Origin: a virus
Virus genome (UHGV): UHGV-1887975
Reading direction: 5' to 3' (one strand)
DNA length: 11,593 bases
This document shows, piece by piece, positions 1 to 11,526 of this stretch. Each line of letters starts with the position of its first letter. Within the stretch, counting starts at the first letter, position 1. The translations under genes and the position numbers were made by a program. Below the pieces are notes generated by a model. The model saw only the letters and a program-made list of their open reading frames with translations. It was not told where the DNA came from and ran no database searches.

Positions 1-128
1 CATAAAGTAAGGTCAATTACGCCAAAAATGACATTTTCACTGATCCTGATCGTCTTGCCTTATTGAATATGATTGCTATTTGCATTTAAAATCGAGACCT
101 GGTTTTTCTACTGAAATGATTATGACTT

Positions 129-141
129 CAATGACCCTTGA
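129..141. repeat. 13-bp exact direct repeat CAATGACCCTTGA, left copy; candidate left attachment-site core
   Basis: Identical 13-mer at 129..141 and 11514..11526, the latter immediately distal to the integrase gene. A single 13-mer match in an 11.6 kb window is not by itself significant. Confidence 0.3.
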
Positions 142-258
142 ATAAAGTCTATTCGGTTTTCTTTAGATGTTCGCCTCACATAATCTTCAAGTGATGTTCC
201 TTACATCTCCCTAGAGCGTTAAGATAGTTAACTGATTGAGTTTTCAGGGTATGAAAGG

Positions 259-924
259 ATGAGCAACACTACTGATTGGGGAAGCATGATAGCCAACATA
301 GTTATGGCTACTACCGCTGTCTGGGCTGCATTCAAAGCTAATGACTGGTTTAAAACCAAGCGTCTTGAGAGTGCTGAAAACTTCTATAAAGAAGTACACA
401 ATCTCCATAAACGTTACTATTCAGCTATCCAATACGTTGAGGATTCAAGAAGAATATTTGATAGTCAGTATGGGTTGCATTCGCCAATATCTGAACCTAA
501 AGACAAGTCATTGCAATGGGAGGTTAAATCGAACTCTTACAAAATCATCGCTGAACTAGATTATCTGGCATCGTCACTACAAATGATGGATGCAATGGGT
601 AACAAACTTAGCCCTAAATCGGCTTCACTGGTTAGTGATATGATGGAAGCACATGGACGATTCTGTAATGATGTGATGAACTTCAATGACTCAGTTTGGA
701 AGGTTATAAGGGCAGGTATAACTGAAGAGAACATCCCACATACGCGAGGCTATGTGAACGGCGATTACATGGCTATCCTTACCAGTATGGATGAACCTGT
801 AAGAATATCTTTTAAGTTAAAAGAAATCAGTTTTAAAGATTTTTACTTACATGAAACTACTATGCAGTCAGTAATAACGAGGCTGAAATCGCTTATCGCC
901 AGAACAGGTAAAAACAGGACATAA
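259..924 (+). CDS. Hypothetical protein, 221 aa, with predicted N-terminal transmembrane anchor
   Basis: Uninterrupted 666-nt ORF. Residues about 10-26 (IANIVMATTAVWAAF) form a hydrophobic helix followed by a charged soluble domain. The AAAGGA purine run abuts the ATG at 259 with essentially no spacer, so the true start may be the in-frame ATG at 286. No recognisable family motif. Confidence 0.55.
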   Translation: MSNTTDWGSMIANIVMATTAVWAAFKANDWFKTKRLESAENFYKEVHNLHKRYYSAIQYVEDSRRIFDSQYGLHSPISEPKDKSLQWEVKSNSYKIIAELDYLASSLQMMDAMGNKLSPKSASLVSDMMEAHGRFCNDVMNFNDSVWKVIRAGITEENIPHTRGYVNGDYMAILTSMDEPVRISFKLKEISFKDFYLHETTMQSVITRLKSLIARTGKNRT

Positions 925-1112
925 ACAGGTTAGTACCTATGCAATTTAACGGTATTTTTCCAAGTATCTATGCAATCCTACACAGATTCTATACAGTATC
1001 GACATAGTTTCCTTTTGGTATAACTTATTGAAATATATAAAGAATCTGTGAAGCCCCTTTTCAGGGTAAACTGTATCGTGTTAGTCGTCCCTCTCTCGAC
1101 TCCTAGAAAAGT

Positions 1113-1142
1113 GCTATATACAGGGCTATATAATGCTATATA
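1113..1142. repeat. Three tandem copies of GCTATATA (starts 1113, 1125, 1135)
   Basis: Direct reading: GCTATATAcaggGCTATATAatGCTATATA, spacing 12 and 10 bp. Contains a TATAAT hexamer at 1129..1134. Confidence 0.5.
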
Positions 1143-2591
1143 GATAGTTGGTCACATGGTGTAACTATCAAACTACTTAACAGTTTCCTACGTGAAAGTT
1201 AGAAAGTGATAGTTATAGTTACCTTGTCAAATCTTCGTAGTCCATTCTTAAAAAATCACTTACAGACACCTTAATATCTATACAGATTTCATGTAGAACA
1301 CGATTAGTGCGTAGAAGAGTCATTATGTTAAAAACGAACTGTATACGTATCAGTACTGATTTATAAGGGTTTTGTGTATTTGAAGATAAGAGGCTATACA
1401 GCACCTTGAGAGCATGTCTTCTAAGTCATTGATACATAAGGTCACAGAAGTTTGTGTCTGTTACAGAGAAAACTGGATAGGACTTCACAGAACTACAAAA
1501 TGTTACAGCTATTGATAGGTGAAATCTTCTTGATAGATGCCTTGAAGTGTGGTGAAGGTTTCTTGAGGTGGAGCTAAACAGATGCTATGAAGAAAGTCAA
1601 TAGTTGGTTATAGATATTTTAACTGCTTTTGCAAAGGGGGTGCTGTATCGTGAATCTGGGGTACTTAACAGCCATCAATCATGAGGTAGATTCTACCGAA
1701 TCAACTGTGTAGATATTTTTTAAGATTATCGGTGAAGGGGGAATGCAGAGGGGGGTACTACGATTTTTATAAAAATTTTCAGAAGCCAAATAACTACTGT
1801 GTATATTTTGCACAATCCTGCCAAACCTCATAGAAAGCTCTGTAGCGAGTTTTAACCCCATTTTTAGGGGTAACCTGTAGGGATGTACCACCCACCTTAA
1901 AATAAAGGGGTAAAATCGCTTAGAATGCGTTACAGAGCGTCTGAGAAGCTATATTCACAGATTTTACTAAAGTCTCAGACTTCTAAGTAGTCTTTTTAAC
2001 GGGAGGGTTCTTTCTCATGTATCACCCTCTCTTCCCGCTAAGTAAGCTACACAGACCTAGAGAACATGCCTTCACAGCATCTATATCAGGTCAGATTTAG
2101 AGGGTTTTGATAGAATTTTCAAAGGTACTTGACAGATAACTATGAAGTTGTTAGGAAGAATTGTTTAACGGGAGGAAAGATACGATATAACCCGAAGGGA
2201 AAGTATCATCTTAACAGTGATTGTAAGAGATACCTGAAAAGCTCCTCTTAACAGAACTACCAAGAAGAGAGGGAACGATAAGACCAGAGGTAGTGACCTG
2301 TTAAATAGTTCGTTTCAAAGCTCTTAAGAGTCTGTTAAGTAAGGGCTATGTGAACAATCTTACCATTTTGTCAATGCTCTTGTCTTTGACCTAAATCAAT
2401 AAAATGTATCGTTTGATATGGTTTTAAGCAAGATGGCTAAAAATCTTTTTAGAGGGGCGCTTCGCTTGTGTCACTATGTTCTTTCTCTCCCTGTCTAAGA
2501 GGGGGGTTACAGAGGTCTTTCAAGTCTCAATAGACAAACCGAGGAACGCAGGAAACCGAGGGAAGAAAAACTATTGTGATTACCCTGAACA

Positions 2592-2625
2592 AGGTCTGTA
2601 AAGGTCGTTTAAGAGGTCGGTTAAG
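2592..2625. repeat. Three tandem AGGTC-containing units of 10-12 bp (AGGTC at 2592, 2602, 2614); iteron-like
   Basis: Direct reading: aAGGTCtgtaa / AGGTCgtttaag / AGGTCggttaag. The last two units are 12 bp and differ at one position. Confidence 0.5.
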
Positions 2626-2749
2626 AAAGGAGCTTCCCTCTCTGGGGTTGTCGCTCTTCTCTCGCTTGGTGGATTGATTAGGGGGTATGTTATACAAGCC
2701 CAACTAAGAAGACCTCTGAAGCTTACCTGTGAAGAAGCTGAACAGCTAT

Positions 2750-2900
2750 TATATTGGGTGATTACAACTCATTGAAAAATAAGCATTTTTAGAAATCACT
2801 GTTAAGGTTGCAGAGTTGTCTGTGAGGAGACTTGTCTGCTCTCTATATTGGGTGGTTACAACTTATTGAAAAATAAGAACTTTTAGAAATCACTGTCAGA
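2750..2900. repeat. Pair of 57-bp imperfect direct repeats (2750..2806 and 2844..2900), 94-bp period
   Basis: Aligned by eye: TATATTGGGTGaTTACAACTcATTGAAAAATAAGcatTTTTAGAAATCACTGT versus TATATTGGGTGgTTACAACTtATTGAAAAATAAGaacTTTTAGAAATCACTGT, roughly 50 of 57 identical. Confidence 0.6.
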
Positions 2901-2998
2901 GAGGTGAATACTTGATAGATACAGCTTTCCGGTTCTGTCAAGTCATTTTTTAATAGATAGCATAAAATGCTAAAGATACCCCTATACCATCACGTACA

Positions 2999-3030
2999 GG
3001 GGGTTTTGAAGGGGGTTTAACGGGGGTCTG
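2999..3030. repeat. Three tandem G5-tract units (GGGGG at 2999, 3011, 3022)
   Basis: Direct reading: GGGGGTTTTGAA / GGGGGTTTAAC / GGGGGTCTGTG, spacing 12 and 11 bp. Overlaps the 3' end of the - strand small ORF. Confidence 0.5.
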
Positions 3031-3193
3031 TGTGGTCATTATCCTTAAGGTCAAGCGTCCATGTACGACCGAACAGTTTAAAGACAACAAGCACTCTGAC
3101 GAGGACGTAGCGAAGTAGCAGGCCTGCAATAAGTCCAATACCTCCACCAGCCCATACATCAGGTGACCCCAATTCTGGAGGGAGATTTACCAT
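3017..3193 (-). CDS. Putative small membrane protein, 58 aa (MVNLPPELGSPDVWAGGGIGLIAGLLLRYVLVRVLVVF...)
   Basis: Internal ATG of the track ORF 3017..3235 at 3191..3193 is preceded on the - strand by AAGGA about 7 nt upstream. It encodes a strongly hydrophobic glycine-rich helix of about 23 residues. It lies within locally GC-richer sequence, antisense to all neighbouring genes. Could be spurious. Confidence 0.35.
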   Translation of the reverse strand: MVNLPPELGSPDVWAGGGIGLIAGLLLRYVLVRVLVVFKLFGRTWTLDLKDNDHTDPR

Positions 3194-3410
3194 TAAATTT
3201 CCTTGTAAGACGCTCTCAATCGCATTCTGACACAAAAAAGTACCTGACCTTATAGTTGACCTGAAGAGGCCATTTAACTCGTTACAGAGCGATTGAAGAG
3301 GTCTGTGTGCAATGCAATAACCATGTGACCACTCTCATAGCCACGCCTCATATTTTACTCTCCCCATAGAACCATTATACCACAGATGTTAATGAAATGT
3401 TAAAAAGTGC

Positions 3411-3439
3411 TTGACATTAGTCTTTGAAAATGCTAGTAT
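3411..3439 (+). promoter_or_regulatory. Sigma70-type promoter: TTGACA, 17-bp spacer, TAGTAT
   Basis: Consensus -35 TTGACA at 3411..3416, 17-nt spacer, -10 TAGTAT at 3434..3439 (4 of 6 to TATAAT), about 48 bp upstream of the ATG at 3488. A TTAACAGAGG word sits at the expected transcription start. Confidence 0.55.
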
Positions 3440-3487
3440 TGTATATAAGTTAACAGAGGATTAACAATTATAAGGACTAGCTTATGA

Positions 3488-4042
3488 ATGAACGACAGAG
3501 AATTTAGAGCGATGCTTCAGGCATCAAGAGAACGCAACAAGCACAACTCCTACGCTTACACAAACAACCCCACCAGCTACGAACTACCAGCCTTTTCCAA
3601 ATCCGAACGTAAAAGCATTGAAGCGGTCATTCGTAGCATTACGCCACGAGGCAGATATATGCCAACACGCAAAACAACAAAGAATAACTTAAAAACTTTC
3701 TTGATGAGTTTTGACAGCTACGAACAATTACCGTCACGAATTGAAGATGTAATTATCGGCACTTGTCGCAGCTTTGGAAGGGATAACTATCACCGGAAAG
3801 TTTTCTATTTGCTTCGAAGCCTTGATGAGATTAACTCAAGCACAGTGACGAGCCATCTTCAAAGACAAGCAACCAGACTTAGCCACGAGCTACCATCTGA
3901 TAAGTATTGCGCTAATTTAACCACCATTTGCAATAAAGTTATCGAGACAATCAATCATCATGTTGGGGTTGGTAATATCAGCCTTACGACCAGTGAGCCA
4001 GACTTTGAATTTGACGTATACGCACAAGCAGAGGAATTTTAA
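3488..4042 (+). CDS. Hypothetical protein, 184 aa
   Basis: First gene after the predicted promoter; AAGGA about 10 nt upstream of the ATG. Basic, Ser/Thr/Arg-rich. No motif I can recognise. Confidence 0.65.
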   Translation: MNDREFRAMLQASRERNKHNSYAYTNNPTSYELPAFSKSERKSIEAVIRSITPRGRYMPTRKTTKNNLKTFLMSFDSYEQLPSRIEDVIIGTCRSFGRDNYHRKVFYLLRSLDEINSSTVTSHLQRQATRLSHELPSDKYCANLTTICNKVIETINHHVGVGNISLTTSEPDFEFDVYAQAEEF

Positions 4043-4043
4043 A

Positions 4044-4325
4044 ATGGGAAATAAACACACACTAACCAGAGTTACAAAGACAGCCTTTGAAGAACTTAAC
4101 CGAATCAAAAACATTACAGGTCTGCCACACTCAGCAGTGATGAAGCTTGCAATTAACCGTGATATTAACGAGCAGGATTTGCTTAATAGTCGTTTAGAGG
4201 CAGCAAGACACCATATCAGGATTAAGCAAGATGACCTTGATAGTCTGAAATCTTTAAATGCTTTTGGACTGGATTTAGCAAGGTTACTAAGTATCAAAAT
4301 TCACAAATTAGCGATGGAGGTTTAA
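4044..4325 (+). CDS. Hypothetical small protein, 93 aa (start moved to the RBS-supported ATG)
   Basis: Track ORF 3960..4325 would overlap the upstream gene by about 80 nt. The in-frame ATG at 4044 is preceded by GAGGAA (4031..4036) and begins 2 nt after the upstream stop. Its stop overlaps the next start (TAATG). Confidence 0.6.
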   Translation: MGNKHTLTRVTKTAFEELNRIKNITGLPHSAVMKLAINRDINEQDLLNSRLEAARHHIRIKQDDLDSLKSLNAFGLDLARLLSIKIHKLAMEV

Positions 4326-4711
4326 TGTATGACTTTTATAAACATCGTGACCATTTGGTAAGATTTGACGGTAAAGTCTGGAAAGACGTAACACAAACCA
4401 ATAAGCCCAAGTTTACCCACCAGCAATTAGCCTCAAGATTTGATATCTGGGCTGAAGCACAAAAAGATAATGGTGATTTCGAGTTTATCAGAGGTTTTGA
4501 TTATGCTTACGAAAGCGACCTTAAAGACGCCATTGAATTAATGGAGAACTTCAACTCTATTAAAAATAGTGACAAGCACAAAGCCAACGGTAACAGATAC
4601 GATAAAGATTTAATCATTGATGCAATCACCAAAGGACAATCACAAAGTTATATTTCTGAGAAATACGGCTTATCACGTAGTCAATACTACAAGATTAAAG
4701 CGTCTGTGTAA
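4325..4711 (+). CDS. Putative DNA-binding protein with C-terminal helix-turn-helix, 128 aa; possible transcriptional activator
   Basis: The C-terminal segment DKDLIIDAITKGQSQSYISEKYGLSRSQYYKIKASV has the classic pattern of a helix-turn-helix as found in small phage activators and sigma region-4-like domains. The start is translationally coupled to the upstream gene. Family assignment is an inference. Confidence 0.6.
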   Translation: MYDFYKHRDHLVRFDGKVWKDVTQTNKPKFTHQQLASRFDIWAEAQKDNGDFEFIRGFDYAYESDLKDAIELMENFNSIKNSDKHKANGNRYDKDLIIDAITKGQSQSYISEKYGLSRSQYYKIKASV

Positions 4712-4723
4712 GTCTGTGAGAAT

Positions 4724-4792
4724 GAGTGAGACTCAAAGATGAGCTACCCTATTACTAAGGTGTCTCACTCCCTCTGTAACCCGCATGGTTAC
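4724..4792 (+). promoter_or_regulatory. Two consecutive hairpin-forming inverted repeats in the gap between genes
   Basis: Perfect 9-bp inverted repeat GAGTGAGAC (4724..4732) / GTCTCACTC (4762..4770) with a 29-nt loop, followed by a 6-bp stem GTAACC (4776..4781) / GGTTAC (4787..4792) with a 5-nt loop. No U-tract follows either, so they are not classic terminators. Confidence 0.4.
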
Positions 4793-4849
4793 TGGCCTCA
4801 GAATGGCTATTTTGGCAGATTTAAGATGTGTTTTTATAGGATTTTAAAA

Positions 4850-5173
4850 ATGAATAATTTCCCACTACAGATTTTTATTGATACCGACACCGCCATGATG
4901 ATTCAGGCTTTCACTGATGTAGGTGTTAGCATTGACTTTGATAAGTTGTTAGAGTTAATGGCTGATNATNCNGANANCATCTNTGACTTTATTCACTCGG
5001 TGGAGTTTAACGAGCCTCGAATGATGTTACCAATTACAGACAGTAATATGAAAAGATTGGTTATTGAGCAAACGAACAAATACAGTATTTCCCCAGAGCA
5101 ATTTTTGAAAGGTGCTGTGACAATCCTGTACAGCGATAATATTTTGGTTACGGATTCCGTGAGGGTTCACTAA
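4850..5173 (+). CDS. Hypothetical protein, about 107 aa (alternative start 4739 gives 144 aa); contains ambiguous bases
   Basis: Track ORF 4739..5173. The ATG at 4739 lies inside the hairpin region, so the in-frame ATG at 4850 is preferred, but neither has a strong RBS. Codons 4967..4984 include N, so several residues are undefined. Confidence 0.45.
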   Translation: MNNFPLQIFIDTDTAMMIQAFTDVGVSIDFDKLLELMADXXXXIXDFIHSVEFNEPRMMLPITDSNMKRLVIEQTNKYSISPEQFLKGAVTILYSDNILVTDSVRVH

Positions 5174-5250
5174 TGGGCTTAATAATTGCTTGGACGTTGC
5201 TTGGCTTATTTGTTGGTTGCTGGGTGGGTAACACAGTAAATAAGAATTGA
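5173..5250 (+). CDS. Candidate micro-ORF encoding a 25-aa hydrophobic peptide (MGLIIAWTLLGLFVGCWVGNTVNKN)
   Basis: Its ATG overlaps the upstream stop (TAATG at 5171..5175), suggesting translational coupling. The peptide is almost entirely one transmembrane-like helix. Below the length cut-off of the ORF track and could be fortuitous. Confidence 0.3.
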   Translation: MGLIIAWTLLGLFVGCWVGNTVNKN

Positions 5251-5468
5251 TGTTATCAATCTGTTAAAAGCTGTTGACAAATAACCTTAAGCATGAGATG
5301 ATGGTAATAGGGGGCAACTCTTCCTGAATTAAACTATTAATCATTCTACATCAATGATAGTTATTCTGAGTTGGAAAGGTGCAATGCTTTTCGTCATGGC
5401 CTATTTAGCCCACACTAGATAGGCTATCTCAAAAAGTCTTTGTTTATTCATTGAATCCTTTACAGATT

Positions 5469-5496
5469 GCCCTAATCATGAGTTAGGGCGTTTTTT
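5469..5496 (+). terminator. Rho-independent terminator
   Basis: Perfect 7-bp stem GCCCTAA (5469..5475) / TTAGGGC (5483..5489), 7-nt loop, followed by G then TTTTTT (5491..5496). Confidence 0.65.
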
Positions 5497-5667
5497 AAGA
5501 GTTTTTAAAGAAATTTCTTCACCAGCCCTTTATAGCGTTTTAGTTATCTAGGGCTTTTTCAGCTTTTAAAAAGCATACTTGGCAAACGCTTTTAAGTCTC
5601 TTCTAAGTTCGTAGGCTGTCAGGTGTGCTTTTTAAAAACTGAATATTACTTAGAAGAGGAAAAAACA

Positions 5668-6378
5668 ATGACAAACGATTTATATATTAACGGCAGAAAG
5701 ATTGATAGCTTCGGGGACTGGTCACCACAGGGTGAACATCCGCTACATACTATTCAGCGTAAAGAACACGATGAAAGAATTAAGCTTGAGCAAGAGTTAA
5801 AGATGTCACCAAAGGTAATTTCCTTTGTGTCTCCTGAGCCTCAAGAAATGCCTGATGTATGCAAAACTGAAGCACTATTTAATCTTGAGCGTGAATATTA
5901 CCCACTGCTAAAAGCACAGCGTATTAAACTAGATGACGCTTACAGCAAAGTTACCCTGATGCAATCAGCTATTGAGCCATCAGAATTTGAGATTCAGGAT
6001 GAATTGTCACAGAAACCATTTGTCTATTACAAATATGAAGACAATGATGGTTTTGGTACTTTTCCTGAGAATATCCCAGACGTGATTAATAATCTTCCTG
6101 ATGGATATCGAATTGTGAAGATGGTTAAAGCTTCAAGAGGTGCTGGTCAGTTTATTTTCATGACCGATAGGAGCGATGAAGAACTCTGTGAAATTGCTAA
6201 ACAGAACATCTTAGCATCACGTAACAAGCAACTTGAAAATGTTAAGTTGTATCTCTCAAGAGAGCTTCAGGCTATGAAAGAGCTTGTTAGTGAATATGAA
6301 TCACAGAAGAAGATTGCTATGCAGGCTGATATTGAGCAGTTAGTGAAGATTTCTCAGAAATATGCAAAGGCACTTTAA
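5668..6378 (+). CDS. Hypothetical protein, 236 aa (start moved to the RBS-supported ATG)
   Basis: Track ORF starts at 5623. The in-frame ATG at 5668 is preceded by GAGGA (5656..5660) with 7-nt spacing. Acidic, with a coiled-coil-like C-terminus. No recognisable motif. Confidence 0.65.
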   Translation: MTNDLYINGRKIDSFGDWSPQGEHPLHTIQRKEHDERIKLEQELKMSPKVISFVSPEPQEMPDVCKTEALFNLEREYYPLLKAQRIKLDDAYSKVTLMQSAIEPSEFEIQDELSQKPFVYYKYEDNDGFGTFPENIPDVINNLPDGYRIVKMVKASRGAGQFIFMTDRSDEELCEIAKQNILASRNKQLENVKLYLSRELQAMKELVSEYESQKKIAMQADIEQLVKISQKYAKAL

Positions 6379-6402
6379 CTATGAATTAAAAGGAGGTGGT
6401 GA

Positions 6403-6606
6403 ATGATTGATTTAACAGAACGCTATGAGCTTATTAAAGCAATTAGTGAACGATTGAAAGAACAACCCAACAAACCAAAACGAATCAAATCATCCACCTC
6501 TAAGCAAAAGAATAGAATCAGAAGAATCGCTAAATGGTGTCTTGATAAATTACCAAGTGATTGTCAGATTGTCGGTGAAGATGGTAATTATTATCTGGTT
6601 AGGTAA
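6403..6606 (+). CDS. Hypothetical small basic protein, 67 aa
   Basis: Strong RBS AAGGAGG (6390..6396) 6 nt upstream of the ATG. Lys/Arg-rich centre (KPKRIKSSTSKQKNRIRRIAK). Followed by a terminator. Confidence 0.65.
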   Translation: MIDLTERYELIKAISERLKEQPNKPKRIKSSTSKQKNRIRRIAKWCLDKLPSDCQIVGEDGNYYLVR

Positions 6607-6631
6607 AAAGATTGGTTGGGTAAAAATCAAC

Positions 6632-6672
6632 GGGAGAGATTATCGAGTGACATCGGTAGCTCTCCCTTTTTT
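6632..6672 (+). terminator. Rho-independent terminator
   Basis: Stem GGGAGAG (6632..6638) / CTCTCCC (6660..6666) enclosing a 21-nt loop, followed directly by TTTTTT (6667..6672). Confidence 0.6.
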
Positions 6673-6702
6673 GTATATGAGATAGTCTTCTATCGAATCC
6701 TG

Positions 6703-6801
6703 TGTGCTACGTGATGATTCGGATAAGAATTATCCTCATGAAATCTGTAAAACTAATACCCACACTGAAAAATAGAATTTACGTACAACACGCTTAAAGA
6801 G
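6703..6801 (+). promoter_or_regulatory. Upstream regulatory cassette, copy 1: GTGTGCTACGTGA, ATACCCAC-N-AAAAAT, TTTACGTA, CACGCTTAAAGAG
   Basis: The same four blocks occur in the same order upstream of the gene at 9102. This copy carries an extra palindrome GGATAAGAATTATCC (6721..6735) between the first and second blocks. Confidence 0.55.
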
Positions 6802-6812
6802 GTGAAACATGA

Positions 6813-8936
6813 ATGAGCAAATTCACAGTTGATAGTTTTATCGTTGAGCTAGGCTTCAATGAAAACGTTATTAAGGGACTGCAAAGAGTTGAAAAGGCAG
6901 CTTTGCAGTCAGCACAAAGAATTGAAAAGAACCTAAATAAAGGTTTCAGGATTAATACAAAGCAGCTTGATAGTAATTTAACGGCTTCTTTAGGGCAGCT
7001 TGAAAGGAAGTTTAATAAGGCCTTTGACAAGATTGAACAGAGAGCAAGAAATACTAAAGCTTTCCAGTTTACCACCAGATTTAATGACACTGTTAATCCT
7101 CCAAAACAACCAAGACAGCCACGAATTAGCGGAAACAGAGCAATCACAGCAGCTTACTCAGCGAATATGAGCAAGCTAAAAGGCCTTAACCCAATTGTCG
7201 AGAAATACATTAAGAGTCAGTTTTACGGGCTATCTGCTAAAGCCGGGTCAATGGATTCTTCAAAATTCAATGAGAAGTTAGCTCAGTTAAACGCTTCAGT
7301 CAGAGAAGCAATTGCTAAAGCCAGAGGTCATACATCCACCAGCATTAATGGTGACAGAGCAGCTAATAGTCTTGATAACCTGTCTTCAGCAGCAGTTAAA
7401 ACAGCAGGTGCATTTATCTCAATGCAGGCTGTATTAGCCAGTTATCAGAAGATTATGGAAATTGGTTTACAGCGTGCAAGTGCTGAACGTTCAATTGATT
7501 TCGTATTTGATAAAGATGCAGGTCAGGTAAAAGAGTTCACAAAGTCATTAGCTCAAACAACGGGTTTAGATATCGCTGAACTGCAATCACAGTTTGCTGG
7601 TTTTGGTGCTTCAGCTAAAGAGTCTATGGGTATTCAAGGTTCTGAAGAACTTTTTAAAAATATGATTGGCTATGCTCGTCTGATGGGGAGAAGTGAAGAA
7701 GAGATTAAGCGAGCACTGACAGCATTATCACAGATGGCTGGTAAGGGTCAGATTATGGCTGAAGAGCTTAAGGGGCAACTGGCTGAAGCTGTTCCTGGTA
7801 TGGTTCAGGTATTCGCTAAAGCAACCGGAAAGACTGAACAGGAATTATTTGATGCCATGAAGAAGGGGGCTTTAAAATCTGCCGATACTCTTCAGAAGGT
7901 CACTCAGGAACTGAATAAACAAATCACCGCTAAAGGTGGCTGGAAAGCCATTTCAGAAAGTACTCAGGCACAACTAGGGAACTTGAAAAACTCTTGGAAT
8001 ACCACGCTTGATAGTATCTTCAGAGGTTCTGAAAATGGTCTGCAAGATTTTACACGAAGCCTAACAACGCTTTTAAACGCTCTTGGTGGAAGTGGTAAAA
8101 GTCTTGGTGAATCTCTTGGTAGTCTCATGACTTCTATGTCACATGGTGTCGATAGTCTGACCGATATTAGTTACAAGGTGCGAGCGTTCTTTGATGAGGT
8201 GACATTAGCTTACCGTTCACTAAATGACACTCAGAGGAAAATTGTTGATGGTTTATCTGATGGGTTAATTGATGGTTTGAAGATGCTTGCTGTGGCTGTT
8301 ACTGCTCAAAAGGCTGCAAATGTAGCTGGAGGCTTGTTAAACCTTGCAAATGCTGTTACTTCATTCGGTGATGCTGTTAATAAAGCTAAAGCTGGCAAGG
8401 CTGGTTCTTCAGGTGGTGCGCTAAGTAAAGTCGGTAGAGTTGTCCTTTATGCTGAGTTGGTAAACTTTGCTCTTGATAATTTAAACCCTGAAGCAGCTAA
8501 GAATCCGAACTTACACCAATCAGGTATTGGTACAGAAACAAACTTCAATCCTGAATACAAAGGCGATTCTAAACCAAACCAAATTAATGAGGGGTGGGCT
8601 AAGATTGGTAGTTCTATCGCTGACTGGTTTAATGGTGCAGCTAATAAAATTGCTAACTTACAAGAACCGATGAATAACTTCGTAAATAACACACAATCAA
8701 CTCCACCAGCTATCGACACGGTGAATATCAATGCTCAATTAGCTATGGCTGTATCAGAGTTAGGAAGAAAGGTTGATGCTTTAACAGTAGAAGCTCGGAA
8801 GCCTTTATCAGTTAATATCAAAGGTGAAGCAATTGTTAGGCCGGATGAGCCATCTTTCTTTAATTTCAATCAATCAGCTAATGACCAGTTCACGCAGGAT
8901 ATGCTCTTAAGTTCAAGCTATCCAGAGGAAGAATGA
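6813..8936 (+). CDS. Tape-measure-domain protein, 707 aa (putative phage tail length tape-measure protein)
   Basis: The central segment GYARLMGRSEEEIKRALTALSQMAGKGQIMAEELKGQLAEAVPGMVQVFAKATGKTEQELFDAMKKGALKSADTL matches, as I recall it, the conserved tape-measure signature of lambda gpH-type proteins. N-terminus is coiled-coil-like; C-terminal third is Asn/Gln/Ser-rich low complexity. RBS AGAGGTG about 10 nt upstream. Confidence 0.75.
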   Translation: MSKFTVDSFIVELGFNENVIKGLQRVEKAALQSAQRIEKNLNKGFRINTKQLDSNLTASLGQLERKFNKAFDKIEQRARNTKAFQFTTRFNDTVNPPKQPRQPRISGNRAITAAYSANMSKLKGLNPIVEKYIKSQFYGLSAKAGSMDSSKFNEKLAQLNASVREAIAKARGHTSTSINGDRAANSLDNLSSAAVKTAGAFISMQAVLASYQKIMEIGLQRASAERSIDFVFDKDAGQVKEFTKSLAQTTGLDIAELQSQFAGFGASAKESMGIQGSEELFKNMIGYARLMGRSEEEIKRALTALSQMAGKGQIMAEELKGQLAEAVPGMVQVFAKATGKTEQELFDAMKKGALKSADTLQKVTQELNKQITAKGGWKAISESTQAQLGNLKNSWNTTLDSIFRGSENGLQDFTRSLTTLLNALGGSGKSLGESLGSLMTSMSHGVDSLTDISYKVRAFFDEVTLAYRSLNDTQRKIVDGLSDGLIDGLKMLAVAVTAQKAANVAGGLLNLANAVTSFGDAVNKAKAGKAGSSGGALSKVGRVVLYAELVNFALDNLNPEAAKNPNLHQSGIGTETNFNPEYKGDSKPNQINEGWAKIGSSIADWFNGAANKIANLQEPMNNFVNNTQSTPPAIDTVNINAQLAMAVSELGRKVDALTVEARKPLSVNIKGEAIVRPDEPSFFNFNQSANDQFTQDMLLSSSYPEEE

Positions 8937-8952
8937 TTTCTTATATATATCC

Positions 8953-9026
8953 GTGTGCTACGTGAAATCTTCTGAACGGATATACCCACTAAAAATTATT
9001 TTTTACGTAGCTCACGCTTAACAGAG
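8953..9026 (+). promoter_or_regulatory. Upstream regulatory cassette, copy 2: GTGTGCTACGTGA, ATACCCACTAAAAAT, TTTACGTA, CACGCTTAACAGAG
   Basis: Same four blocks as 6703..6801 in the same order and similar spacing, but without the palindrome insert. Ends about 75 nt upstream of the ATG at 9102. Confidence 0.55.
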
Positions 9027-9101
9027 AAAATACTTATATATCAAAGGTTTGGTTAAAAATGATTAAAATACACTAAGCCTTTGAAATCAAAGGAGAATTT
9101 A

Positions 9102-9872
9102 ATGATTTACACTAATCAGCTTCGTTACAGTGGCAAAGATGGTGTTTACTTCCATCTACAAGGCCAACCAGATAATTTCTTGTCACTATCAGCAACTGAG
9201 AACATGGAATATGACAGCCCTATGATGGTGACCACTCAAAATATGCAATCAGGGCAGACTGTAACAGATAATGTAATGCGTTCACCAAGAACTATTTCAA
9301 TCAGTGGTGTGGTTGTGGTTGGTGAATCCGGTAGTATCCTTATCTCAAGAGATAATAAGCTGGTGGAAAACTTCATAGACACTCTTGAAAACTGGCGTGA
9401 CCAGAAGCAAATTATCTCAGTTGTCTGTAAAGATGGTATTAAGATTGACGACTCAATTATTACAAGCTTTAAAGCCTCTAAAGATGTTGGTATTTCAAAC
9501 GGCCTAAGAATCCAGCTAACTTTTCAGGAAATCAACTTTAAAGCTATCGTAGGGCAAACTGATATTTCGACTGCTACTGGCAAGACCGCTACCACGAATG
9601 ATGGTGGTGCTACTTCTAAGAAGAATACAGGGAATACTACGACAAGTCTTGGAAGCCCTATGCTGACCTGTAAAGAGCTTTTTAGCTATTCGGCAAGTAA
9701 GTTATCAGATGAAGCGCTAAAAGCCCGTGTAACGTGCTCTAAGAGCGTTAGCGTTAAAAATGGTGAGAGCACCTTCACAGCCTCAGCTAATGAGCAAGCT
9801 TCAAAGGTGCTTAAGTCGGGTAATGCTTTACGGAAGTACTCTGTGAATCCGAATAAGAAGGGCACTTATTGA
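9102..9872 (+). CDS. Hypothetical protein, 256 aa; possible tail-associated structural protein by position only
   Basis: The track ORF begins at a TTG (9081). The ATG at 9102 has AAGGAG (9090..9095) at 6-nt spacing. Ser/Thr/Gly-rich. Assignment as tail-associated rests only on its position after the tape-measure-like gene. Confidence 0.65.
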
Positions 9873-9876
9873 GACA

Positions 9877-9899
9877 TAAAAAGGGGCTTCATAGCCCCT
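9877..9899. terminator. Terminator hairpin between convergent genes
   Basis: Perfect 7-bp GC-rich stem AGGGGCT (9882..9888) / AGCCCCT (9893..9899) with a 4-nt loop. AAAAA (9877..9881) on the + strand gives a U-tract after the stem for the - strand transcript (integrase); a weaker A/T stretch follows for the + strand. Confidence 0.6.
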
Positions 9900-9904
9900 G
9901 AAAA

Positions 9905-11425
9905 TTACAGTTGATAAGCGTCAATATCCAGTAGCTCTTTATCAGCAATTTCAAAGATTGGTGACCCATCATTTAGCGGTAACGGGTTTGTAGGTATGGT
10001 TATTTCAGTGTCGTTCTGTAGCGTTACAGTTACCGAATCCTTACCCAATGTCAGCCCCTTTAGATGCTTGGACAAAATCAACTGACACTCGACACGACCC
10101 GCTTTAGTTGTCAGGTCAATATCTTTAAGCTGGGGTAGTTCCTTATCAGTGAGTGAAGCCTTACGCCTCATGTTATCAATCGTGGTCTGTAGCTCTGTGC
10201 GCTTCTGGTTCAGTTCCTTAAGCTGAATTTTTAGTTCATCAATATCATCCATCTCAAGAAGTAGGGCGGTAGCTTTCTTGATTCTGGTTGTGACAATTTC
10301 AACCTCATGCTGTAGAGATGCAATCTTCCCCTCTGCTTCTCCATCATTCCCCACGTCAATCATCCCCAGAAAATTATCAATCATCCACTTATCAAACGGT
10401 TTACGCTTCAACGGAGGAACATCACAGCGACCATCAAGATGGTTATTGCACCGATAAACGCCCTGATACTTATTCTTAGTCCCTGTAGGGTGAACACTAG
10501 CCCCGCACTGACACCTAAACAGACCTTTGAAGATGTTAATCGTTAATGGATTATCACTTGCAGGTGTACGGCCTATACGGTTCTTACCAAGAATCTCTTG
10601 AGCTTTATTGAACGTTGAAGCATCTATAGCGGCTTCGTAGTAGTTCGGTATAGCGGGGCGGTCATTACGTTGTGATGCTGGTAACGTGCCTATCGTTGTC
10701 TCTGACCTTAAGATGGTGCGTACAGAGTGAACACTAAACCCGTTAGCATCTTTACGGCGACTAAACGACTTTATACCGTTGCTTTGAAGGTGACGGGCGA
10801 TGTTATGCAGACTTTCACCACTTAGCAGCAGCTTGAAAATCAGTCTTACAGTCTCAGCGTGTTCATTGAGTTTAAAAGTATCGGGGTCAATCCATCCGGG
10901 AACCATCTTTGTTAAACGTTGTTCACCAGCAAGGGCAAGTTTTGCACGTTGCTCCCATTTCTGAGAAACACGGAAAGACTTCTGCTTAGATTCCTGATGC
11001 GCTATGTAGGCTTTGACACGCTGGATGATTGAGATTCCTAAATCATCGGCTAAAGCATCCTTTGTGTAGATAAGACCATCTTGTAGCGTGTGAATCTCTA
11101 ACCCGTTGCCTAAGATGCGATTCATCAAGGCTTCTGTTTCAAGGTGTTCTAAGCGGCCTATACGGTCGATACTCTCAACAAGCAAAATCGTACCTTCTGG
11201 AAACTCCCCAGACTCAATACGGGCTAACATGTCACCAAACTGACCAGTAAGATGCTTACCTTTGTAACCGGATAGGCCTTCATCACTGAAAGACGCTACT
11301 ACTTGAGCATCGCTATTCTTCTTCAGCCACTGCTTGAACAGGTCGTTTTGTCGTCTGGTTGAATCTGCACCTTCAGCGCCTTGTATAGCTGAACTGTACC
11401 GAAGGTATGTAATTACGCTCCTCAT
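9905..11425 (-). CDS. int: Large serine recombinase (site-specific integrase), 506 aa
   Basis: N-terminal resolvase-type catalytic domain with candidate nucleophilic Ser in YLRYSSAIQ, a D-x-G-x-SG motif (SDEGLSGYKG) and LVESIDRIGR resembling the resolvase DRLGR box. A large recombinase domain follows, then a Cys-rich zinc-ribbon-like segment (CQCG...C...C) and a C-terminal coiled coil. This is the typical large-serine-recombinase architecture. GGGAG RBS upstream on the - strand. Confidence 0.9.
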   Translation of the reverse strand: MRSVITYLRYSSAIQGAEGADSTRRQNDLFKQWLKKNSDAQVVASFSDEGLSGYKGKHLTGQFGDMLARIESGEFPEGTILLVESIDRIGRLEHLETEALMNRILGNGLEIHTLQDGLIYTKDALADDLGISIIQRVKAYIAHQESKQKSFRVSQKWEQRAKLALAGEQRLTKMVPGWIDPDTFKLNEHAETVRLIFKLLLSGESLHNIARHLQSNGIKSFSRRKDANGFSVHSVRTILRSETTIGTLPASQRNDRPAIPNYYEAAIDASTFNKAQEILGKNRIGRTPASDNPLTINIFKGLFRCQCGASVHPTGTKNKYQGVYRCNNHLDGRCDVPPLKRKPFDKWMIDNFLGMIDVGNDGEAEGKIASLQHEVEIVTTRIKKATALLLEMDDIDELKIQLKELNQKRTELQTTIDNMRRKASLTDKELPQLKDIDLTTKAGRVECQLILSKHLKGLTLGKDSVTVTLQNDTEITIPTNPLPLNDGSPIFEIADKELLDIDAYQL

Positions 11426-11488
11426 GGTGATAAACTCCCATGCAATTGATTCTCATTTAAAGATAAGCTTATAACCATTATGGCTAAT

Positions 11489-11526
11489 GCTACAATGCCG
11501 AATAGCTACAATACAATGACCCTTGA
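11489..11526. repeat. Integrase-proximal repeat cluster: GCTACAATG / GCTACAAT / ACAATG, then the right copy of CAATGACCCTTGA; candidate attachment-site region
   Basis: Direct reading of 11489..11526. The 13-mer at 11514..11526 is identical to 129..141. Sequence to the right becomes GC-rich (cctcgccgcttcccctggccgacg...). Confidence 0.4.

What the first reader, a model, noticed from the sequence alone, without database searches (positions are those of the whole stretch)
3017..3193. Antisense-oriented small hydrophobic protein inside the noncoding region
This is the only candidate gene on the - strand apart from the integrase. It would encode a 58-aa protein with one glycine-rich transmembrane helix and has an AGGA RBS. 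Small single-helix membrane proteins in mobile elements are often lysis modulators, superinfection-exclusion factors or toxins. Its location in the repeat-rich region and opposite orientation suggest separate regulation.
Basis: partly seen in the sequence, partly recalled or inferred. Interest (0 to 1): 0.45.

Follow-up and report, generated by a model that had tools for sequence, protein, structure and literature searches.

The report
Conserved small membrane protein gene
The 58-codon antisense reading frame is a real, selectively maintained gene with its own promoter and terminator. It encodes a tiny single-pass inner-membrane protein of unknown role in an E. coli island that looks like a parasite of Felix-O1-type phages.

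Summary
Window 3017-3193 (- strand) encodes a 58-aa protein behind an AAGGA ribosome-binding site.

An ORF of this length is expected by chance, so the evidence that it is real is comparative:
- It is intact in all 15 full-length BLAST comparisons and 18 of 19 fetched relatives (E. coli, E. albertii, Citrobacter). Other ORFs in the same region are broken.
- The frame survives independent in-frame indels.
- Variable columns by codon position are 17/7/27, and dN/dS is 0.06-0.30.

The gene has a conserved near-consensus promoter lying back-to-back with the operon promoter, and a stem-conserved 3' hairpin.

The protein is one helix with a GxxxGxxxG glycine zipper, an acidic N-tail and a conserved cationic segment next to the membrane. 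It is the island's only clear membrane protein.

No homologues exist outside this island family, and it matches no Pfam, PHROG, NCBIfam, PADLOC or PDB entry.

The role is inferred only. I favour a self-associating membrane effector that acts during helper-phage infection: lysis timing or permeabilisation about 0.35, entry exclusion about 0.25, toxin about 0.1-0.15.

It is a new member of a known kind, of moderate interest. The island around it, carried by about 7% of E. coli genomes, appears undescribed.

The parts
3017..3193 (-). Coding sequence of the 58-aa single-pass membrane protein (stop codon included).
   Evidence: Translation. Intact in relatives L001-L019 except L013, where a C9 tract puts the ATG out of frame. 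Variable columns by codon position 17/7/27 of 63, chi-square p=0.003. dN/dS 0.06-0.30, and about 0.04 over codons 1-30. RefSeq annotates it in 8 of 14 relatives as WP_000247749, WP_000247742, WP_000247735, WP_021532079 and WP_062880863.
3200..3204 (-). Ribosome-binding site AAGGA, 6 nt upstream of the ATG.
   Evidence: Read directly. An AAGG(A/T) or AGGAA site 4-9 nt before the ATG is kept in all relatives, including those with a short 5' UTR.
3194..3366 (-). Predicted 5' UTR of about 173 nt. The transcription start is inferred about 7 nt after the -10 element.
   Evidence: Inferred from the promoter position. The fold has z = -2.1. The 5' purine tract GGGGAGA pairs with UCUCCCU in codons 4-6 in 17 of 18 variants. 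This pairing carries little information, because it is polypurine against polypyrimidine.
3205..3307 (-). 103-nt imperfectly palindromic insertion inside the 5' UTR. It is not an essential part of the gene.
   Evidence: Present in the window and in L001-L011 and L017. Absent from L012-L016, L018 and L019, where the ORF, RBS and promoter are unchanged. Paralogues lie at window 1822-1948 (+) and at about 4915-5090 in relatives. It folds on itself.
3325..3344 (-). Conserved 5' UTR hairpin GTGGCTAT-GAGA-GTGGTCAC.
   Evidence: Relatives L003, L008 and L014 carry 15-47-nt insertions in its loop while keeping the stem.
3374..3403 (-). Sigma-70 promoter of the small gene: TTAACA, 18 nt, TGgTATAAT (extended -10).
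   Evidence: 11 of 12 consensus matches plus the TG. TG(G/A)TATAATGG is found in every relative that retains the region. In L005 an IS3-family element has replaced it.
3387..3403 (-). Operator-like direct repeat TTAACA-N5-TTAACA overlapping the -35 and spacer of the small-gene promoter.
   Evidence: Perfect matches occur at only two places in the window, against 0.12 expected for the pattern with up to 1 mismatch. In L013 both units have changed together to GTAACA.
3450..3466 (+). Second operator-like repeat TTAACA-N5-TTAACA, just downstream of the operon promoter and 63 bp from the first, in inverted orientation.
   Evidence: The first unit is conserved in relatives.
3411..3439 (+). Divergent promoter of the + strand operon, TTGACA-17-TAGTAT, back-to-back with the small-gene promoter (context).
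   Evidence: Conserved in all relatives.
2979..3002 (-). 3' hairpin CCCCTGTAC-loop-GTATAGGGG followed by UAUCUUUAGCAUUUU. Probably a weak intrinsic terminator or mRNA 3' stabiliser.
   Evidence: A hairpin sits 15-20 nt after the stop codon in every variant. In L014 it is inverted with the stem kept, L004 and L007 have loop insertions, and L011, L012 and L019 have a different hairpin at the same position.

Best explanation
Window 3017-3193 (- strand) is a real, monocistronic gene. It is transcribed leftward from a near-consensus sigma-70 promoter (3403-3374) that lies back-to-back with the promoter of the island's main operon, and it ends at a hairpin (3002-2979).

It encodes a 58-aa single-pass inner-membrane protein with these features:
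- Predicted topology is N-out/C-in: an acidic 13-residue N-tail (net charge -2) and a segment of net charge +4 after the helix.
- The membrane helix carries a GxxxGxxxG glycine zipper, a motif that typically drives self-association.
- The helix runs into a strongly conserved cationic amphipathic stretch, RYxxVRxxxVFxLFGRxWxxDLKD.

Shown: the gene is real, conserved and under purifying selection; it has its own expression signals; it is the only clearly membrane-spanning protein of the island.

Inferred: it oligomerises in the inner membrane and acts on a membrane step of the helper phage's cycle.

My committed ranking of roles is:
- Membrane permeabilisation or lysis-timing effector, switched on together with the operon and working like PLE LidI or a holin: about 0.35.
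- Blocker of phage genome entry, working like HK97 gp15 or T4 Imm: about 0.25.
- Toxin for abortive infection or island maintenance: about 0.1-0.15.
- Something else: the remainder.
For: Coding:
- The ORF is intact in 15 of 15 full-length comparisons. Neighbouring chance ORFs score 0/5, 0/2, 2/14, 2/4 and 1/5.
- The frame is kept through a 3-nt deletion (L004), a 12-nt insertion (the REWSF clade), a 6-nt deletion (L012, L019) and a 15-nt duplication (P0026).
- Variable columns by codon position are 17/7/27, p=0.003. dN/dS is 0.06-0.30 at dS up to 0.5.
- A 57%-identical orthologue sits at the same position in a Citrobacter island.
- N-terminal extensions called by gene finders are not conserved, so ATG 3193 is the start.

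Expression signals:
- The promoter matches 11/12 with an extended -10 and is conserved.
- The RBS is conserved.
- The 3' hairpin stem is preserved through an inversion and through loop insertions.
- GC content is 49% against 39% for the surroundings.

Membrane protein:
- Kyte-Doolittle score 2.29. No other island protein exceeds 1.6.
- A single helix in AlphaFold2.
- Charge distribution -2 / 0 / +4 / -2 along the protein.

Favouring 'induced effector':
- One TTAACA-N5-TTAACA repeat covers the -35 and spacer of this promoter. Its twin sits just downstream of the operon promoter, 63 bp away.
- The most conserved residues lie in the membrane helix and the cytoplasmic flank, not in the periplasmic tail.
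- There is a precedent: LidI, 66 or 121 aa, was at first unannotated, is the transmembrane protein shared by all five PLEs, and disrupts the helper's lysis inhibition (PMC7182436).
Against: - There is no experimental evidence of transcription, translation, membrane location or phenotype.
- There is no homology to any characterised protein.
- The island has no endolysin or spanin partner.
- A strong sigma-70 promoter, a private terminator and deviant GC are the hallmarks of a 'moron' expressed from a quiescent element. That fits entry exclusion at least as well (PMC3594210).
- The operator reading of the TTAACA repeats is inference, and no repressor has been identified.
- The protein has two Arg residues inside the best hydrophobic window, so the exact helix boundaries and topology are uncertain.
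- RefSeq annotates the gene in only 8 of 14 relatives. That inconsistency reflects its small size rather than decay.
Confidence: 0.6

Rival explanations
1. Superinfection-exclusion 'moron'. The protein is made constitutively from the quiescent island. It sits in the inner membrane and blocks genome delivery by incoming tailed phages, for example by interfering with channel formation by their tape measure protein.
For: - The unit is self-contained: a strong sigma-70 promoter, its own 3' hairpin, and GC of 49% against 39% for the surroundings. This matches the definition of a moron (PMC3594210).
- HK97 gp15 is a small inner-membrane protein that excludes phages in a way that depends on the phage tail.
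- T4 Imm binds the tape measure protein to stop genome translocation (bioRxiv 10.64898/2026.03.06.709160).
- The island carries its own tape measure gene, only about 32% identical to that of Felixounavirus. Its Dit-like gene, by contrast, is 80-84% identical in DNA. This would allow discrimination between tape measure types.
Against: - No sequence relation to YebO/gp15, Imm or SieA.
- The periplasmic tail is only 13 residues and is less conserved across the deepest relatives than the cytoplasmic flank.
- A satellite needs its helper to enter the cell, so excluding the helper would be self-defeating.
- The operator-like repeat over the promoter argues against constitutive expression.
Confidence: 0.25
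2. Type I toxin or abortive-infection toxin. The small hydrophobic peptide depolarises the membrane when it is over-produced. It is normally held in check after transcription, and it serves island maintenance or suicide of infected cells.
For: - Size, a single helix, a cationic amphipathic segment and a glycine zipper fit pore-forming peptides.
- The 5' UTR is long and structured, about 85-200 nt, with a conserved hairpin.
- The mRNA 5' end is predicted to pair with codons 4-6 in 17 of 18 variants, reminiscent of the fold-back control of hok, tisB and zorO mRNAs (the comparison rests on my own knowledge).
- A + strand promoter-like site at 3227-3256 would give an RNA antisense to the UTR.
Against: - The antisense promoter lies in the 103-nt insertion that many relatives lack. 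Its -10 is not conserved even where the insertion is present: TATAGT, TATATG or TATGAG.
- No Rfam sRNA or toxin-antitoxin RNA was found, and there is no Hok/Gef, Ldr or other Pfam match.
- The SD and AUG are predicted mostly unpaired, 0.6-0.85.
- The 5'-to-coding-region pairing persists when the purine tract is shuffled, with a control sum of 1.3-6.3 bp, so it is largely a composition effect.
- At 58-62 aa with a conserved hydrophilic tail, it is longer than most type I toxins.
Confidence: 0.12
3. The frame is conserved for a reason other than its protein. For example, the DNA could be a regulatory or replication element, or the RNA a structured non-coding transcript, with the ORF incidental.
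For: - The ORF lies in a regulatory hub next to divergent promoters, operator-like repeats and a repeat-rich region.
- The adjacent 5' UTR is as conserved as the ORF or more so: 11 of 68 variable columns for 3194-3260, against 51 of 189 for the ORF.
- RefSeq omits the ORF in 6 of 14 relatives.
Against: - Variation is concentrated at third codon positions (17/7/27).
- All indels are multiples of three.
- Amino-acid changes are conservative (V/I, L/F, K/R, T/S).
- The start, RBS and stop are all kept, and dN/dS is well below 1.
- Neighbouring ORFs under the same DNA-level conservation are broken.
- There is no + strand ORF of 40 aa or more across 3017-3193.
Confidence: 0.05

Closest known systems
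LidI of Vibrio cholerae PLE satellites (PMC7182436)
   Same: Both are very small proteins (66 or 121 aa for LidI) with a transmembrane domain, encoded by a phage-parasitic island that carries a large serine recombinase. Both were missed by annotation, have no homology to anything else, and are the island's conspicuous membrane protein.
   Different: No sequence relationship was found. The exhaustive profile search recovered only this family. LidI lies in the same orientation as the PLE operons and is detectable only after ICP1 infection. Here the gene is divergent, with its own sigma-70 promoter. Whether Felixounavirus shows lysis inhibition was not examined.
HK97 gp15 moron (YebO-like) and T4 Imm superinfection-exclusion proteins (PMC3594210; bioRxiv 10.64898/2026.03.06.709160)
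   Same: Both are small inner-membrane proteins of a mobile element. Like a moron, this gene is an independent promoter-gene-terminator unit with deviant GC. The known examples act on tape-measure-dependent genome entry, and this island carries its own tape measure gene.
   Different: There is no Pfam match to YebO or Imm_superinfect. Imm has two helices (from my own knowledge). Expression in the quiescent state is not shown, and an operator-like repeat overlies the promoter.
Holins and pinholins (for example S21-68, whose second helix uses a glycine zipper; from my own knowledge)
   Same: Small size, a transmembrane helix with a GxxxGxxxG motif, and a charged cytoplasmic C-terminus.
   Different: No match to any holin family in Pfam or PHROGs. 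There is no endolysin or spanin gene in the island. There is one helix only.
Type I toxins (Hok/Gef, TisB, ZorO and others; from my own knowledge)
   Same: A short hydrophobic peptide on a mobile element, with a long structured 5' UTR and predicted pairing between the mRNA 5' end and the early coding region.
   Different: No conserved antisense RNA gene, no Rfam hit and no Pfam hit. The SD is predicted accessible.

Membership tests
Holin (any Pfam or PHROG holin family) | Sequence match to a holin family profile. | tested here: not met
   0 Pfam families even at E<=10 for four family members. 0 PHROGs.
Holin (any Pfam or PHROG holin family) | At least one transmembrane helix plus a charged C-terminal cytoplasmic domain. 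| tested here: met
   Kyte-Doolittle 2.29 over residues 19-37. Charge +4 over residues 28-43 and -2 over 44-58. Single helix 11-54.
Holin (any Pfam or PHROG holin family) | Encoded in a lysis cassette with an endolysin or spanin. | tested here: not met
   No endolysin or spanin among the island's proteins. The weak 'endolysin' PHROG hits belong to the Dit-like protein, whose best family is a Felixounavirus structural family.
Holin (any Pfam or PHROG holin family) | Forms membrane lesions or collapses the PMF at a programmed time. | not testable with these tools
   Needs expression and PMF or lysis assays.
Type I toxin-antitoxin system | Small hydrophobic membrane-active peptide. | tested here: met
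   Membrane activity itself was not tested.
Type I toxin-antitoxin system | Conserved antisense or divergent sRNA antitoxin gene with its own promoter and terminator. | tested here: not met
   The only + strand promoter-like site (3227-3256) lies in an insertion absent from L012-L016, L018 and L019. Its -10 varies where present. No Rfam match.
Type I toxin-antitoxin system | mRNA held translationally inert by 5' fold-back or occlusion of the RBS. | tested here: inconclusive
   The 5' purine tract pairs with codons 4-6 in 17 of 18 variants. The SD and AUG are mostly unpaired, and shuffled purine tracts pair too.
Moron-type superinfection-exclusion protein (HK97 gp15/YebO, T4 Imm) | Sequence membership in YebO or Imm_superinfect. 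| tested here: not met
   No Pfam hit. No hit in 50,697 phage records by tblastn at E<=10.
Moron-type superinfection-exclusion protein (HK97 gp15/YebO, T4 Imm) | Independent promoter-gene-terminator unit with composition unlike its surroundings. | tested here: met
   Promoter 11/12. A hairpin after the stop codon in all variants. GC 49% against 39%.
Moron-type superinfection-exclusion protein (HK97 gp15/YebO, T4 Imm) | Expressed from the quiescent element and blocks phage genome entry. | not testable with these tools
   Needs expression data and plating or DNA-entry assays.
PLE LidI | Sequence homology to LidI. | tested here: not met
   A profile search of 1.84 billion representatives returned 17 hits, 15 of them this family and two weak partial matches to larger unrelated proteins. 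LidI sequences were not compared directly.
PLE LidI | Transmembrane protein of a phage satellite, induced by helper infection, that alters lysis timing. | not testable with these tools
   Only the first clause could be checked. It is the single clear transmembrane protein of a satellite-like island.

The most novel reading that the evidence does not exclude
The island is an undescribed E. coli satellite of virulent Felix-O1-type phages. This protein is its dedicated membrane weapon, in one of two forms. It could be a gate that discriminates between the helper's tape measure protein and the island's own divergent one during genome entry. Or it could be a LidI-like trigger that forces early lysis of helper-infected cells. 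In either case it would be co-regulated with the hijacking operon through shared TTAACA operators.
Probability: 0.2. Interest if true: 0.7.

Novelty: new member of a known kind. Interest (0 to 1): 0.45.

Why it matters
Small membrane proteins are systematically missed by annotation. This one is absent from the RefSeq annotation of the window's own near-identical genome and of 6 of 14 relatives. Yet in mobile elements such proteins are often the effectors that decide phage-host outcomes, as with LidI, gp15, Imm and holins.

This gene sits at the regulatory hub of an island carried by about 7% of complete E. coli genomes. The island has borrowed tail genes from Felix-O1-type phages, which are used in therapy and biocontrol. 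If the protein changes lysis timing or phage entry, it would affect how well such phages work on carrier strains. It would also give a handle on what appears to be an uncharacterised satellite system in the best-studied bacterium.

If it does neither, it is one more conserved orphan small protein.

Tried and rejected
Searches that found nothing for the small protein:
- Profile libraries: Pfam (also at E<=10 for four members), PHROGs, NCBIfam and PADLOC.
- An exhaustive HMM search with a 7-sequence profile against 1.84 billion representatives. It gave 17 hits, 15 of them this family and two weak partial matches to larger unrelated proteins.
- A PDB sequence search at E<=10, which gave one meaningless hit.
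- tblastn against 50,697 phage records at E<=10, which gave no match.
- Rfam on the whole window, which gave no credible RNA family.

Uninformative results:
- AlphaFold2 gives one long helix. That is too trivial for a fold search, so none was run.
- The search with the neighbouring 184-aa protein listed only close E. coli relatives. It did not reach distant islands where positional conservation could have been tested.
- IMG/VR hits come from isolate-genome proviruses and say nothing about packaging.
- Four literature searches for the island or its protein accessions found no description.

Ideas rejected:
- The upstream TTG start at 3235 (72 aa). The extension is not conserved and is deleted in short-UTR relatives.
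- The overlapping 69-aa ORF at 2950-3159. It is intact in only 2 of 14 relatives.
- An upstream leader ORF starting at about 3352. Its ATG is present in only about half the variants.
- The + strand antisense promoter at 3227-3256, which is not conserved.
- A decayed recombinase or methyltransferase gene in the window's gene-free region. tblastn finds no remnant. The region is a conserved alternative module that L007 and L008 share at 83-88%.

Full report
**What the window is**

The window is a chromosomal island of about 11.4 kb in Escherichia coli. It matches strain UTAK-18 at 99.8% over its whole length, between yciI and tonB.

The 13-bp direct repeat CAATGACCCTTGA lies at 129-141 and again at 11514-11526. 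It contains the tonB start codon.

The island encodes:
- A large serine recombinase, 9905-11425 on the - strand.
- A tape measure protein, 6813-8936.
- A Dit-like baseplate protein, 9081-9872.
- Several proteins without any family.

The Dit-like gene is 80-84% identical in DNA to Felixounavirus phages. The best phage relatives of the tape measure protein are the same phages, at about 32% amino-acid identity. In those phages the two genes are adjacent, as they are here.

The element therefore looks like a satellite or parasite of Felix-O1-type virulent phages. I found no paper describing it.

Related islands occur in about 400 of 5,426 complete E. coli genomes. They use at least two integration sites. 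They also occur in E. albertii and in a Citrobacter.

**The observation**

The ORF is exactly as described. ATG is at 3193 and TAA at 3019-3017. It has 58 codons, and AAGGA lies 6 nt upstream of the ATG.

Its length alone means nothing. In 78% of shuffles of the 925-3487 region there is at least one ATG-ORF this long, and the real region holds three.

**Is it a gene?**

I fetched 19 related loci spanning 57-100% protein identity. The evidence is as follows:
- The frame is open in all of them except L013. There a run of nine C's after the ATG puts the ATG out of frame. This may be a homopolymer sequencing error.
- In the same BLAST-based test, five other ORFs of the region are intact in 0/5, 0/2, 2/14, 2/4 and 1/5 relatives, against 15/15 for this one.
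- Indels are all in frame: a 3-nt deletion, a 12-nt insertion, a 6-nt deletion and a 15-nt duplication.
- Variable alignment columns fall 17, 7 and 27 at codon positions 1, 2 and 3, with p=0.003.
- Pairwise dN/dS is 0.06-0.30 with dS up to 0.5, and about 0.04 over the first 30 codons.
- The ATG, the RBS and the TAA are conserved. The N-terminal extensions that gene callers add are not conserved.

RefSeq annotates the gene in 8 of 14 relatives as 'hypothetical protein'. It does not annotate it in the genome that matches the window.

I conclude that it is a real gene under purifying selection.

**Transcription unit**

A promoter reading TTAACA-18 nt-TGgTATAAT lies on the - strand at 3403-3374. 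It matches 11 of 12 consensus positions and has an extended -10. It is conserved in every relative that retains the region.

It lies back-to-back with the operon promoter TTGACA-17-TAGTAT at 3411-3439.

The predicted 5' UTR is about 173 nt here. Of this, 103 nt (3307-3205) is an imperfectly palindromic insertion that L012-L016, L018 and L019 lack. In those relatives the UTR is 75-120 nt, and the RBS, ATG and ORF are unchanged. Paralogues of this insertion lie at 1822-1948 in the window and at about 4915-5090 in relatives.

A hairpin follows the stop codon by 15-20 nt in all variants. Its stem is preserved in several ways:
- It is inverted in L014 with the stem kept.
- It carries loop insertions in L004 and L007.
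- A different hairpin occupies the same position in L011, L012 and L019.

The U-tract after it is poor, so termination may be partial.

GC content is 49% for the ORF against 39% for the surroundings.

Two perfect TTAACA-N5-TTAACA repeats occur in the window, against 0.12 expected. One covers the -35 and spacer of this promoter. The other lies just downstream of the operon promoter, 63 bp away and in inverted orientation. In L013 both units of the first repeat have changed together to GTAACA. I read these as operators that may co-regulate the two promoters. This is inference.

**The protein**

- AlphaFold2 predicts one helix, residues 11-54.
- The best hydrophobic window scores 2.29. No other island protein exceeds the usual 1.6 threshold.
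- Net charge is -2 for residues 1-13, 0 for 14-27, +4 for 28-43 and -2 for 44-58. By the positive-inside rule this gives an N-out/C-in topology (the rule comes from established knowledge).
- G16, G20 and G24 form a glycine zipper.
- Across the deepest relatives the best-conserved block is GGIGLxAGxLxRYxxVRxxxVFxLFGRxWxxDLKD. This covers the membrane helix and its cytoplasmic flank.

**Homology**

There is none outside the family.

**Mechanism**

Nothing computational discriminates firmly among the candidate roles.

I favour an oligomerising membrane effector that is switched on with the operon and alters permeability or lysis timing, at about 0.35. The reasons are:
- The operator-like repeat over its promoter.
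- The conservation centred on the helix and the cytoplasmic flank.
- The glycine zipper.
- The precedent of LidI.

Entry exclusion, as with HK97 gp15 or T4 Imm, gets about 0.25. It is supported by the moron-like architecture and by the island's own divergent tape measure gene.

A type I-like toxin gets about 0.1-0.15. It lacks a conserved antisense RNA. The predicted pairing between the mRNA 5' end and the coding region carries little information.

**Verdict**

The role remains open.

It is a new, orphan member of the known class of small membrane proteins of mobile elements. Interest is moderate. The surrounding island may be the more notable object.

Noticed in passing
window 129-11526 (whole island): The island looks like an undescribed satellite of virulent Felixounavirus phages. 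It has a large serine recombinase, a tape measure gene (about 32% amino-acid identity to Felixounavirus) and an adjacent Dit-like baseplate gene (80-84% DNA identity), but no capsid, terminase or lysis genes. Relatives occur in about 400 of 5,426 complete E. coli genomes, in E. albertii and in Citrobacter. No paper was found.
   Followed up: partly
window 129-141 and 11514-11526: The 13-bp att core CAATGACCCTTGA contains the tonB ATG (11516). The island is therefore inserted exactly at the tonB start codon and separates tonB from its native upstream region (window 1-128). tonB must then be transcribed from island sequence. A second integration site, next to yecN and a truncated DUF72 gene, is used by other members.
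   Followed up: partly
window 3205-3307; 1822-1948; relatives L003, L004, L008-L011, L014, L016 at about 4915-5090: A palindromic element of about 100-130 nt, with terminal inverted repeats of the type GCTCTGTAACG / CGTTACAGAGC, occurs at different places in different members of the island family. One copy is inserted in the 5' UTR of the small gene. It may be a miniature mobile element or a structured RNA module.
   Followed up: partly
window 1045, 1483, 2128, 2247, 2331, 2595, 2934, 5458, 9017, 9424: The motif CTTNACAGA occurs 10 times against 0.61 expected. None of 200 shuffles reaches that count. Seven copies are in the gene-free region, on both strands. Two lie just upstream of the genes starting at 5623 and 9081. 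It may be a promoter element or a protein-binding site, and it is unexplained.
   Followed up: partly
window 925-3487: The 2.5-kb gene-free region is not decayed genes. L007 and L008 share it at 83-88% without ORFs. Other relatives carry a small serine recombinase, an N6-adenine methyltransferase or an AP2-type gene in its place. It contains a 53-nt direct repeat (2750-2802 and 2844-2896).
   Followed up: partly
L014 (NZ_CP123024.1), homologue of window 2979-3002: The 3' hairpin of the small gene is present as its exact reverse complement apart from one base. This is a hairpin inversion that keeps the stem.
   Followed up: yes
L013 6019-6040 (GCA_047706215.1): A run of nine C's directly after the ATG of the small gene puts the ATG out of frame. 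Ten C's would restore MTPPPPEL. It is either a homopolymer sequencing error or slippage-prone phase variation.
   Followed up: no
window 4967, 4970, 4972, 4975, 4977, 4983: Six isolated N characters lie inside the 4850-5173 gene, giving X residues in its translation.
   Followed up: no
L005 (O111:H8 strains, hits H113-H118): In these genomes an IS3-family element has replaced the promoter region and the operon is gone, yet the 62-aa ORF remains intact.
   Followed up: no
window 2900-3480 versus 3488-4711: The small gene and the promoter hub are far more conserved across E. coli than the adjacent operon genes. Most hits to the hub are 90-95% identical, whereas 239 of 397 hits to the operon are 60-80% identical. 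This suggests mosaic exchange around a fixed regulatory core.
   Followed up: no
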